Assembly (NCBI RefSeq): GCF_017348835.2
Contig: NZ_CP071375.1
From: Escherichia coli
GTDB taxonomy: Bacteria > Pseudomonadota > Gammaproteobacteria > Enterobacterales > Enterobacteriaceae
DNA length: 64,000 bases
Reading direction: 5' to 3' (one strand)
Positions 48,501 through 51,500 of the stretch are shown here, in pieces. Positions within the stretch are counted from its first letter, which is position 1, and each line of letters opens with the position of its first letter. The position numbers are program-made.

Positions 48501-51500
48501 GCTTCGGGCTGTTTGCGCATTGATGCTGAGATACGCTTCCAGTCTTCGCGATCCTTGTCGATAACCTCATTTGTCGCCCAGCGATGGATGGTACCGTCAA
48601 TGTTTCCTGCATCCACATCACCGGGCCAGAGGGCGCAGGCCAGTTCATTGTCGAGTGTTTTCCATGTCTGTTTGTATTCGCGGCGAATGGCAACAGTGAC
48701 AGCCCCGGTTTTTTCAGCAGCGTTTTCAGTGTTCTGTTGGTTGACTCTGGCGCGGGTGAGATCAACAACAGACGTGTATTTTCCGGTTTCCTTGCGTTCA
48801 CCTTCGCGACGTTTTTTCCAGATGCGCATCTCTGCCTGAATTTCAGGCCATTTAGCGCCAGGCTCACATTTATGCTTAACCCACCCGATGGCATGCAGTT
48901 TAAGTTCAGGATACATGGCGTTAACTTCTGGCATTTTCATCAACGCTTCAACGATATGTCCGCCGAATGTTGCCATGTCTTCCTGTAGTAATTCCTGTGC
49001 GCTAATCACCATATCAACGGTGATGTTTTCGCATGTGTCGAATTTAACCAGGACTGCGTTCTGTACTTCAGGGGACAGCTTGTCAAAATTGACGTTCATC
49101 GGATCGGATTCTGGTTCGACCGGTACAAAGGAAGCTGACTCCTCATCCCAGCGGTTTTCCTGCATATATTCGGTATCCCAGGAATCGAGGGCAGGGCGGG
49201 GTATGCCGGGTTTATCCTCGCAGACAATAAATTTATAAGCGCAGTCCTGAGCTGCCGGGAATTGCTCCAGAAATTGCCAGTGAAATTTTGCGCGTGCGCG
49301 ACGCTCATCACCGGCTTCAATGGCAGTGGCCACCGCAACAGCGCTATCTTCTTTTATGGCCTGTTCGTCAGGAATAGCAGCGCAAATAAAGATTTTACTC
49401 ATTGTGTTTTAACCTCATTACAGATTTAAGGGTGAACAAATCCCTGCCATTGCTGGCATATAAAAATGAAACCGGATATTAATTACGGTGCTGTTTTAAA
49501 GTCCTGCCGGTATTTCGTTATTATTAGTGTGAGTAGTTTTATCTACCGGATAACAGTTACCGGGAATTTTTTGTTCTGCTGCTGCAGCCATGCATTCTTT
49601 CATTGAACCGTATAAGCCAGTCACCAGCTCAAGAGATTCGCCGGAAACAAGATAAACTGTCAGAACGAGTGCAAATGTTGTATTCATTGTTTATATCCTT
49701 TTTGCAGCAGGTCCAGACGAGCCAGCATTGAAGGAATGCATACTTCATTTAACAGGTCCTGCTCGAGTTTTCTCTGCTTAATGGCGTCTTCAATAAATGT
49801 TTTGTCTCCAGTGATAACGCCAATTTCGAAACGAAGTTCAGACGTGCTGGCATTACATGATAACTTTTCCATTATCGCGTCCTCAACAATGAATTTTGTG
49901 ATGCGGTGCCTGGTGCCTCCAGGTGACGTTAACCAGTTAACAATTAACGCCGGATACAGAGCATTCTCGTTACTCAGCAAATGACCGCTTTACCGATTTA
50001 ACTGTTCCGCGTGCGCTGAGCCGCATTCACCGCATCACAAAATTCACTTTTAAAAAAGGGCGGCAGAGCAGTCACGGAGTAAAACTGATACCGCCAAATG
50101 TCACCAGAATATTGATAACAGAGGGCGTTGCAGCGGGGTTGTCACTTAAGCGTATGGTCAACCTGACAACCCGGTGTCCTCAACGGGGAAAGAATAACCC
50201 CGCCATACTTACCGCCGCGCCATTTCGCGGATTGCCACAACCGGAAGCGCACGGTCGAATTAAATTTAACGACGGCTCTAAGGGAGAAGGACTTCGCCGT
50301 GCACTTTCGTGTTATGCCCTGACTTTTCAGGGATATATCCTTTCAGTAAACTGTCAGTGCCGGATTCTTATCTGTGTCCGGCGCACGACCACACGTAGCA
50401 GCGTGTTGGTCTCCATTTTTAATTCAGCCCTTAATGGAGGATAAAATGCCAAACAAACCATGCCCTGCCTGTAACGCTCTTTCTGGCTTTTTAGAGAAGG
50501 GCGGTTATTACATTTTTAACTGTCCAGAACATGTTGAATTTCATATATCAAAACTTGACAGTATCATTACAAAGCCAAATCAGTATCAGTCTGATTTACT
50601 GAATAAAGAGTTAAACGCCGCCCGAGATTAAGGGCGTAGTGGCCCATTAAAAATATTGCAAAGACCAACTATTGTTGAACTGGATTAAACCAGTAATTCT
50701 CTATTGCTCTTATTGTTACCATCGGATGATTGCCGGGGGTTATTTTAAGTTCGGGAGGAAAAGGCTCTCCATCAGCAGCCATCATTGAGTATGTGAAATC
50801 CGCCGACGCAGTCCCTTTCATGATAATTCCGAATTTTTCAAGTAATGAGAGCAGTTCCGGTAATCCTGTGTCATCTGAATAACTTTCCTCATAGAAAGAA
50901 GCGATTGCCGCAGGAGATGACAGTTCTCGCTCTGCAATTTTTTTGTAGTTTTCCAGAGTTCTTTTTTTGAATACTTTTCCTCGACATGAAAACCCATCAC
51001 CGAGGCAATCCGCTTTGCAGTTTCTTCAGTATTCTGGTTGTTTGTTACCGAAACAGAGTACAATCCGGTAAACGCATCGCGCACATTACGAGCCATATTA
51101 TCAATGTATTTCTTCGTTGCAGATTCTAATTCAACTTCGTTCAGACGTTGGTGAAGTGCATGTGCTGCAATTTCCTGGATTTCTTTTAGTAAATCTTTAA
51201 ATTCCATCTTTAACTCCGTTAGTCGTTAGATTTTGCCGAACTGGAAAGCGCCTGTTTAAACTCACTGAAGCTGAGAGCTTCCTCGCCTTCGGCAAGGCCT
51301 TTGAACCGCCCCGGGTTTCCTGGAGAGTGTTTTATCTGTGAACTCAGGCTGCCAGATCATTATTTCCGATGGAAGCATAATAAGCTTTTTCTGCTTCTGC
51401 CGGAGGAATATGGCCCAGCCTTTCCAGCAATCGTCGATTGTTATACCAGTCCACCCACGTTAGTGTGGCCAGTTCCACTTCTGCACGGTTTTTCCAGCTC

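What the first reader, a model, noticed from the sequence alone, without database searches (positions are those of the whole stretch)
50446..50631. Oppositely oriented small cysteine-rich ORF inside the leftward early operon
A 61-aa ORF with a strong GGAGG ribosome-binding site and a CPAC...CPEH motif is encoded on the plus strand between the dicF region and the frameshifted early gene, against the direction of all neighbours.
Basis: seen in the sequence. Interest (0 to 1): 0.35.

Follow-up and report, generated by a model that had tools for sequence, protein, structure and literature searches.

The report
Truncated small zinc-ribbon prophage gene
The 61-codon reading frame is a real, conserved but uncharacterised small zinc-ribbon protein gene of lambda-like prophages; this copy has lost its last 19 codons to a stop mutation, its neighbouring partner gene is frameshifted, and databases already list it as a hypothetical protein.

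Summary
The ORF at 50446-50631 (+) is as described: GGAGG five bases before the ATG, C6-P-A-C9 and C26-P-E-H29, and minus-strand genes on both sides. It is a real gene. Two independent comparisons at about 70% DNA identity give dN/dS of 0.16 and 0.13 in its frame, against 0.24-1.65 in the other frames. Both zinc knuckles are invariant down to about 40% protein identity.

It is already annotated as a hypothetical protein (ECs1061 in Sakai prophage Sp4, WP_001133046.1, phrog_10133). No function is known, and Pfam, NCBIfam, PADLOC, PDB and BFVD give no significant match.

Three points are new:
- The window copy is a nonsense-truncated allele (TAA where relatives have TCA) of an 80-91 aa protein. 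The lost tail carries invariant residues.
- The gene always lies convergent to, and overlapping the 3' end of, one early gene whose C-terminal domain has the same narrow distribution. The two form a low-GC, two-gene mosaic module found in different operon contexts.
- In the window the partner gene is also broken, by a frameshift (T7 where relatives have T8).

The function is inferred only. My best guess is a small zinc-ribbon protein that works with or against its partner. No convincing promoter was found in the E. coli lineage. Interest is modest.

The parts
50446..50631 (+). Small zinc-ribbon protein gene, truncated 61-aa allele (ECs1061 / WP_001133046.1 / phrog_10133)
   Evidence: ORF. Identical to the RefSeq CDS. 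phrog_10133 at E=7e-48. dN/dS 0.16 against L003.
50437..50441 (+). Shine-Dalgarno sequence GGAGG, five bases before the ATG
   Evidence: Read directly. AATGGAGGATAAAAT is invariant in 7 leaders.
50629..50631 (+). Premature stop TAA, where full-length relatives have TCA (Ser)
   Evidence: Alignment with L010 and the L016 80-aa form. 382 of 385 E. coli genomes match the surrounding 61 nt exactly, including the TAA. 8 of 8 O157-type IMG/VR loci carry it.
50632..50688 (+). Former C-terminal 19 codons (GRSGPLKILQRPTIVELD) and the original stop TAA at 50686-50688, now untranslated
   Evidence: Translations. dN/dS is 0.11-0.25 across these codons. The family-invariant residues S-G, R-P and E fall here.
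50357..50445 (+). Conserved leader with three predicted hairpins; the third pairs UCCAUU with AAUGGA of the Shine-Dalgarno region
   Evidence: Fold of -36.6 kcal/mol, z = -4.3. Consensus fold of 7 sequences shows no compensatory changes. The leader is nearly invariant while the ORF is about 75% identical.
50669..51207 (-). Convergent partner early gene (ECs1063 homologue), frameshifted. It is annotated as 129 aa (50818-51207), with the original C-terminal frame surviving as a 50-codon remnant (50669-50821). The intact form is 179-186 aa.
   Evidence: repair gives 179 aa. The C-domain is 32% identical to the L006 135-aa protein, E=4e-14.
50938..50944 (-). Homopolymer T7 (A7 on the coding strand), the site of the one-base deletion that frameshifts the partner gene
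   Evidence: L010 and L016 have 8.
50669..50688 (.). 20-nt 3'-end overlap between the ancestral full-length small ORF and the partner gene
   Evidence: Coordinates. The overlap is 20-119 nt in the relatives.

Best explanation
This is a real protein-coding gene for a small cytoplasmic zinc-ribbon protein. The N-terminal part is a four-stranded ribbon with CPxC and CPxH knuckles, followed by two helices and a conserved tail. It belongs to a very small orphan family found in lambda-like prophages of Enterobacteriaceae. The gene forms one mosaic unit with the C-terminal domain of the convergent early-left gene. The two overlap at their 3' ends, co-occur without exception, and turn up in otherwise different early operons. 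The window copy is a degenerate allele. A TCA-to-TAA change removes the last 19 residues, including invariant ones, and the partner gene is frameshifted in an A8 run now reduced to A7. The module is therefore probably inactive or impaired here. Shown: the gene is real, the allele is truncated, and the pairing is constant. Inferred: the protein binds zinc and works by protein-protein contact with or against its partner, for example as a regulator or antidote made from the strand that is not repressed with the early operon. Convergent transcription may add antisense interference.
For: Real gene:
- The frame is open in all four lineages.
- dN/dS is 0.16 (window vs L003) and 0.13 (L006 vs L013), against 0.24-1.65 in the other five frames, all of which contain stops.
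- C6, P7, C9, C26, P27 and H29 are invariant.
- SD and ATG are conserved in all but L010, which has ATA.
- AF2 of the 80-aa form gives pLDDT 74 with a beta ribbon at residues 3-35 and helices at 36-61.
- Members give sub-threshold hits to zinc-ribbon Pfam families, best E=0.006.

Truncation:
-.
- The tail residues S62, G63, R73, P74 and E78 are invariant.

Module:
- The partner C-domain occurs in 411 E. coli genomes and the ORF in 410, with the same identity bands.
- Every partner homologue inspected has the convergent ORF: L002-4, L006-10, L013-16 and L025-30.
- The surroundings differ: dicF/dicB, KilR/TerB/YdfE, or pRha/KilR/RecE.
- The module is 38-40% GC, against 49-51% in the flanks.
- K-12 Qin lacks both genes and has ydfC in their place.

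Own expression signal in one lineage:
- A conserved extended -10-like cassette lies upstream in L006 and L013.
Against: - No function-bearing homologue was found by sequence or fold.
- The fused partner-linker-ORF AF2 model was poor (pTM 0.37). The ORF's tail did not become ordered, so it gives no support for a complex.
- Co-occurrence could reflect simple adjacency, because only about four lineages exist.
- No convincing promoter was found in the E. coli lineage.
- L010 keeps an intact partner while the ORF's start codon is ATA. This argues against an indispensable antidote role.
- The two lesions occurring together may be clonal hitch-hiking in one nearly identical prophage segment.
Confidence: 0.6

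Rival explanations
1. It is an independent accessory ('moron'-type) gene. The small zinc-ribbon protein acts on a host or incoming-phage target, for example by inhibiting a host enzyme or excluding other phages. Its link to the neighbouring gene is only physical.
For: It is oriented opposite to the repressed early operon. Its GC content is low. The Lelliottia-type lineage has its own promoter-like cassette, and the same cassette precedes a second, unrelated plus-strand small ORF in L006. L010 has an intact partner but a mutated start codon in the ORF. The fused AF2 model gave no sign of a complex.
Against: No case of either gene without the other was found in E. coli, Salmonella, the Lelliottia type or the L013 type, although the surroundings differ. 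The 3' overlap is kept in all. There are no PADLOC matches.
Confidence: 0.25
2. In this window the ORF is simply a dead remnant. The truncated 61-aa product is not made or does nothing, and the region matters only as part of the dicF/dicB precursor and as antisense sequence.
For: The nonsense mutation removes invariant tail residues. The partner gene is frameshifted. An IS element interrupts the operon upstream. No promoter was detected. The Shine-Dalgarno sequence is predicted to be partly paired.
Against: The truncated allele keeps an intact start, Shine-Dalgarno sequence, zinc ribbon and both helices. It is almost invariant in 382 of 385 genomes of several STEC serotypes, although that may reflect recent spread. 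This rival concerns only the present activity of this copy and is compatible with the best explanation for the family.
Confidence: 0.45
3. It is not a gene. The frame is open by chance, or the sequence is conserved because of constraints on the minus-strand early transcript.
For: ORFs of this size are common by chance. The region lies inside a long processed transcript. The leader is conserved more strongly than the ORF.
Against: dN/dS is 0.13-0.16 in this frame only, in two independent pairs. All other frames carry stops. The metal ligands are invariant at about 40% identity. The start context is conserved.
Confidence: 0.04

Closest known systems
phrog_10133 / ECs1061 / WP_001133046.1 / UniRef A0A0D7C2N0_ECOLX (uncharacterised protein family)
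   Same: This is the same protein. The match is full length at E=7e-48, and the sequence is identical to the RefSeq CDS.
   Different: None of these entries carries a function. None records that the 61-aa form is a truncated allele of an 80-91 aa protein, or that it is paired with the convergent gene.
Generic zinc-ribbon domains (Pfam Zn_ribbon_TFIIB PF13453, HVO_2753-like small zinc-finger proteins PF07754; ZifS, PDB 8yoz)
   Same: There are two knuckles (CPxC and CPxH) about 16 residues apart on predicted beta hairpins. Weak hits: E=0.006-0.3 in Pfam and Foldseek E=0.18 to ZifS.
   Different: All hits are below the curated thresholds. The fourth ligand is His. The helical part and the conserved tail have no counterpart.
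Small phage or host zinc-finger effectors such as Mu Com, P2 Ogr/Delta, YacG and the MqsA N-domain (recalled from knowledge, used as leads only)
   Same: They are similar in size, have a single zinc-binding module followed by a short effector segment, and are encoded on mobile elements or act by binding one partner.
   Different: No sequence or profile match to any of them appeared in the Pfam or PDB searches. The ligand spacing and gene context differ. Membership is not supported.
Prophage 'morons' (independently transcribed accessory genes inserted in lambdoid operons)
   Same: Opposite orientation, lower GC than the flanks, patchy distribution between otherwise similar prophages, and a promoter-like cassette in one lineage.
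   Different: In the E. coli lineage no clear promoter and only a weak terminator-like hairpin were found. The unit comprises two convergent overlapping genes, one of which is the 3' domain of an operon gene.

Membership tests
phrog_10133 (PHROGs, unknown function) | Full-length profile match | tested here: met
   E=7.3e-48, residues 1-61 on profile positions 5-65 of 65.
Zinc-ribbon fold | Two metal-binding knuckles (CxxC plus CxxC/H) conserved across the family | tested here: met
   C6, C9, C26 and H29 are invariant in 8 sequences down to 37% identity.
Zinc-ribbon fold | Knuckles carried on beta hairpins that form a small sheet | tested here: met
   The AF2 model has strands 3-5, 12-18, 21-26 and 30-35, with pLDDT 82-87 over residues 1-30. 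This is a prediction only.
Zinc-ribbon fold | Score above the curated threshold for a Pfam zinc-ribbon family | tested here: not met
   Best is Zn_ribbon_TFIIB at E=0.0063 in 5 of 8 members. No member reaches a gathering score.
Zinc-ribbon fold | Actual binding of a metal ion | not testable with these tools
   This needs purified protein and metal analysis.
Type II toxin-antitoxin pair | Two co-directional, co-transcribed genes, one of which belongs to a known toxin or antitoxin family | tested here: not met
   The genes are convergent and overlap at their 3' ends. Neither has a Pfam, NCBIfam or PADLOC match.
Type II toxin-antitoxin pair | The toxin arrests growth and the small protein neutralises it | not testable with these tools
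   This needs expression experiments.
Known anti-phage defence systems (PADLOC-DB v2) | Profile match of either protein | tested here: not met
   No family matched the small protein. Only a chance-level Cas11a hit (E=0.013) appeared for the partner.
Prophage moron | Own promoter and terminator flanking the gene | tested here: inconclusive
   No sigma-70-like site lies upstream in the window. There is a weak terminator-like hairpin at 50679-50694. An extended -10-like conserved cassette is present in L006 and L013.
Prophage moron | Base composition different from the flanks and patchy presence among related prophages | tested here: met
   GC is 38-40% against 49-51% in the flanks. The gene is present in 410 of 5426 E. 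coli genomes, while the adjacent dicF-leader DNA is present in 2890. It is absent from K-12 Qin.
Ogr/Delta, Com and TraR/DksA-type phage zinc-finger regulators | Pfam profile match | tested here: not met
   None of these families appears, even at E<=10.

The most novel reading that the evidence does not exclude
The small zinc-ribbon protein and the C-terminal domain of its convergent partner form a previously undescribed two-gene cassette of lambdoid prophages. Examples would be a new toxin/antidote pair or an exclusion pair. The small protein, made from the strand that stays active in the lysogen, would hold the partner (or an incoming phage's counterpart) in check through its conserved tail. 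The O157-type copies would be a pair that decayed together.
Probability: 0.15. Interest if true: 0.55.

Novelty: new member of a known kind. Interest (0 to 1): 0.28.

Why it matters
If the pairing is functional, it would add a new small-protein module to the poorly understood early-left ('dicF-dicB') region of the defective prophages that shape enterohaemorrhagic E. coli. As it stands, there are two practical results. First, an annotation correction: ECs1061-type entries are truncated alleles of an 80-aa protein, and ECs1063-type entries are frameshifted. Second, a small set of intact alleles (L016, the ETEC/Salmonella type and the Lelliottia type) is now identified as the right material for any experiment.

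Tried and rejected
- Family searches (Pfam, NCBIfam, PADLOC) on the ORF and the partner gave nothing above threshold.
- Word-indexed searches of 5.8 billion proteins, with a single sequence and with a profile, found only 5 clusters.
- The exhaustive search of 1.84 billion representatives found one true distant relative (P0005) and two repetitive proteins of 1166 and 1964 aa. I judged those two spurious (8-11 short stretches each).
- tblastn against 50,697 phage genomes found no real match for the ORF and only the N-terminal part of the partner.
- PDB sequence profiles, Foldseek against PDB and against BFVD gave nothing significant. AFDB50 was not available.
- The fused partner-linker-ORF AF2 model was too poor to judge an interaction (pTM 0.37). 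It could not be used for a fold search of the partner either.
- The promoter scan was negative upstream of the ORF. My own looser scan gave only 8/12 matches, and these lie in sequence that is not conserved between lineages.
- I considered hairpin 2 plus the T-run as an intrinsic terminator or the 3' end of a small RNA. I set this aside because the T-run is interrupted in L010 and L014 and the scanner did not call it. Rfam has nothing there.
- The 110-codon plus-strand ORF at 50112-50444, antisense to the dicF leader, is rejected as a gene. Its frame is not kept in L003 or L016.
- Literature searches for the locus tags found nothing relevant.

Full report
**1. The observation**

The plus-strand ORF 50446-50631 exists and encodes 61 aa: MPNKPCPACNALSGFLEKGGYYIFNCPEHVEFHISKLDSIITKPNQYQSDLLNKELNAARD. 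GGAGG lies at 50437-50441, five bases before the ATG. The motifs are C6-P-A-C9 and C26-P-E-H29.

DicF is at 50058-50109 on the minus strand (Rfam RF00039, 77 bits). It is followed leftwards by dicB (PF05358), a DUF1482 gene and an 823-aa exonuclease. Rightwards lie a 129-aa ORF, an IS3-family element, a ydfB remnant, a DUF1391 (ydfA-like) gene, a RelE/RelB pair and the repressor. All of these are on the minus strand.

ORFs of this size are frequent by chance. The case for a gene therefore rests on comparison with relatives.

**2. Identity in databases**

A 451-nt stretch (50300-50750) containing the ORF is 100% identical to E. coli O157:H7 and other STEC chromosomes. RefSeq annotates the ORF as WP_001133046.1, 'hypothetical protein'. 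In strain Sakai it is ECs1061 in prophage Sp4, and the 129-aa neighbour is ECs1063. The exact protein is seen on more than 1000 contigs and is 'uncharacterized protein' in UniRef. It matches phrog_10133, of unknown function, at E=7e-48. It matches nothing in Pfam or NCBIfam. No paper in the searchable library mentions the locus tag.

**3. Is it a real gene?**

The ORF's DNA is found in 410 of 5426 complete E. coli genomes. Of these, 385 are at least 99% identical, one is 90-95%, and 24 are about 75% identical.

In the 75% class (L002-L004) the frame, the Shine-Dalgarno sequence and the ATG are kept, and the protein is 80 aa long. The exhaustive representative search found one distant relative, P0005 (91 aa, 48% identity). 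Following the partner gene revealed another 91-aa form in L013 and an 80-aa form in Salmonella.

Nei-Gojobori estimates are as follows:

| Comparison | nt identity | dN/dS in the ORF frame | Other five frames |
|---|---|---|---|
| window vs L003 | about 75% | 0.16 | 0.42-1.65 |
| L006 vs L013 | 68.5% | 0.13 | 0.24-1.47 |

All the other frames contain stops.

In the eight-sequence alignment, the invariant residues (numbered from the initiator Met) are C6, P7, C9, S13, G20, Y21, F24, C26, P27, H29, F32, I34, K36, D38, I40, Y47, L52, N53, L56, N57, R60, S62, G63, R73, P74 and E78.

The family is tiny: 5 clusters among 5.8 billion proteins even with a profile query. It occurs in E. coli, Salmonella, a Lelliottia-type lineage and one lineage of unknown host. 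It is absent from all 50,697 deposited phage genomes.

**4. The window copy is truncated**

Against L010 (98% identical) and L016, the window has TAA at 50629-50631 where they have TCA. Reading through gives GRSGPLKILQRPTIVELD and the original stop at 50686-50688.

The lost codons evolved under purifying selection (dN/dS 0.11-0.25). They contain five of the invariant residues.

The truncating allele is nearly fixed in this sequence type:
- 382 of 385 genomes match the surrounding 61 nt exactly.
- The one variant inspected is still 61 aa.
- 8 of 8 O157-type IMG/VR loci carry it.

**5. The partner gene and the module**

The neighbouring 129-aa ORF (50818-51207) is a frameshifted form of a 179-186 aa early protein. 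T7 at 50938-50944 is T8 in L010 and L016, and adding one base restores 179 aa ending WFNPVQQ. All eight O157-type IMG/VR loci carry both lesions. All six ETEC-type loci carry neither.

The partner's N-terminal part (residues 1-122 at most) is widespread in Stx and other lambdoid phages. Its C-terminal part is not. The region homologous to the whole 135-aa L006 protein is residues 64-174 (32% identity, E=4e-14).

Several observations tie the small ORF to the partner's C-terminal part:
- The partner's 3' segment (window 50669-50940) occurs in 411 E. coli genomes, in the same identity bands as the small ORF.
- A profile of the partner's residues 64-186 found only 18 protein clusters.
- Every context examined has the small ORF convergent to this domain and overlapping its 3' end by 20 to 119 nt.
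- The surrounding genes differ: dicF/dicB/DUF1482 in E. coli, KilR/TerB-like/YdfE in L013, and pRha/KilR/RecE in Salmonella L014.
- K-12 Qin has ydfC in place of both genes, and homology to the window resumes only at about 50392 and leftwards.
- The module is 38-40% GC, against 49-51% in the flanks.

In the overlap, the small ORF's tail is the conserved partner of the two. L006 and L013 tails are alike, whereas the partner tails after WF differ in length and sequence.

The unit is therefore a two-gene mosaic module. It is not a feature of the dicF region as such.

**6. Structure and possible mechanism**

AF2 on the 80-aa form (6-sequence alignment) gives mean pLDDT 74 and pTM 0.62. It predicts four strands at residues 3-35 carrying the two knuckles, helices at 36-42 and 46-61, and a disordered tail.

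Foldseek against PDB and BFVD gives nothing below E=0.09; the best hit is the small zinc-finger protein ZifS. PDB sequence profiles give nothing. Members give sub-threshold hits to zinc-ribbon Pfam families. The full-length proteins are near neutral to mildly basic (pI 7.8-8.8) and the partner is acidic (pI 5.3-6.3).

A fused partner-linker-ORF AF2 model was poor (pTM 0.37, partner pLDDT 30-67) and did not order the tail. It says nothing either way about a complex.

The mechanism is therefore inference. I favour a small zinc-ribbon protein whose helix and tail contact another protein, most plausibly its constant partner. It is encoded on the strand that is not silenced with the early operon, and convergent overlapping transcription could add a second layer of antagonism.

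The antidote version is weakened by L010. There the partner is intact but the ORF's ATG is ATA.

**7. Expression signals**

The scanner finds no sigma-70-like promoter upstream of the ORF. It finds only a weak terminator-like hairpin at 50679-50694, around the original stop.

The 89 nt before the ATG (50357-50445) are almost invariant between lineages whose ORFs are only about 75% identical. They fold into three hairpins (z = -4.3), and the third pairs UCCAUU with AAUGGA of the Shine-Dalgarno region. There are no compensatory changes, so the structure is not proven.

In the Lelliottia-type and L013 lineages, a different 45-nt cassette ends in TGnTATCCT or TGnTATACT (extended -10-like). It lies about 45 nt upstream of the ATG and is much better conserved than the ORF. 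L006 carries a second copy in front of another plus-strand small ORF. This supports independent transcription in that lineage.

How the E. coli alleles are transcribed remains open. The options are a weak non-canonical promoter inside the leader, an upstream promoter, or read-through of late transcripts after circularisation.

**8. Verdict**

The gene is already catalogued as a hypothetical protein.

The additions are the truncation, the frameshifted partner, the constant convergent pairing, and the very narrow orphan distribution. In this window the module is most likely an impaired remnant. Interest is modest. It would rise only if the intact pair proved to be a functional cassette.

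Noticed in passing
window 51230-52700: An IS3-family element (IS629/IS1203-like; orfA 52231-52557, orfB 51344-52234, ALIL frameshift pseudoknot 52160-52276) is inserted inside the ydfB homologue. 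This cuts the early-left operon just upstream of the partner gene. Sakai Sp4 and PV15-279 lack the insertion, and only one complete genome (strain PE164) shows the same junction in one piece.
   Followed up: partly
L006 5650-5694 and 6380-6424; L007 1480-1501; L013 3624-3645: A 45-nt conserved cassette with an extended -10-like end lies upstream of the small ORF in the Lelliottia-type lineage. In L006 it is duplicated in front of a second, unrelated plus-strand small ORF (6554-6751). It looks like a portable promoter for anti-operon genes.
   Followed up: partly
L003 3363-3875 (+): One ETEC-type relative carries an extra plus-strand 170-aa gene (coiled coil plus C-terminal CxxC...CxxC) between the dicF leader and the small ORF. 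This is a second oppositely oriented insertion at the same spot.
   Followed up: no
window 50357-50445: The leader of the ORF is almost invariant across lineages whose coding sequences are about 25% diverged. It is predicted to form three hairpins, the last of which masks part of the Shine-Dalgarno sequence. The reason for the extreme conservation is unexplained.
   Followed up: partly
window 49900-50060 (-): There is a sub-threshold Rfam match to the sRNA STnc100 (29.4 bits against a gathering score of 47, E=2.7e-4) in the dicF-dicB spacer.
   Followed up: no
window 50112-50444 (+): A 110-codon TTG-start ORF antisense to the dicF precursor ends one base before the small ORF's ATG. Its frame is not kept in relatives, so it is probably not a gene.
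   Followed up: partly
window 53094-53572 (-); 61489-61655 (+); 60368-60484 (+): A RelE/ParE-RelB toxin-antitoxin pair sits next to the prophage repressor. Further right are a sok antisense RNA (hok/sok-type) and a second IS3-family frameshift pseudoknot.
   Followed up: no
window 6936-7014 (+); 18484-18557 (+): Rfam matches to naRNA4 and to the PyrD leader lie in the chromosomal part of the window left of the prophage.
   Followed up: no
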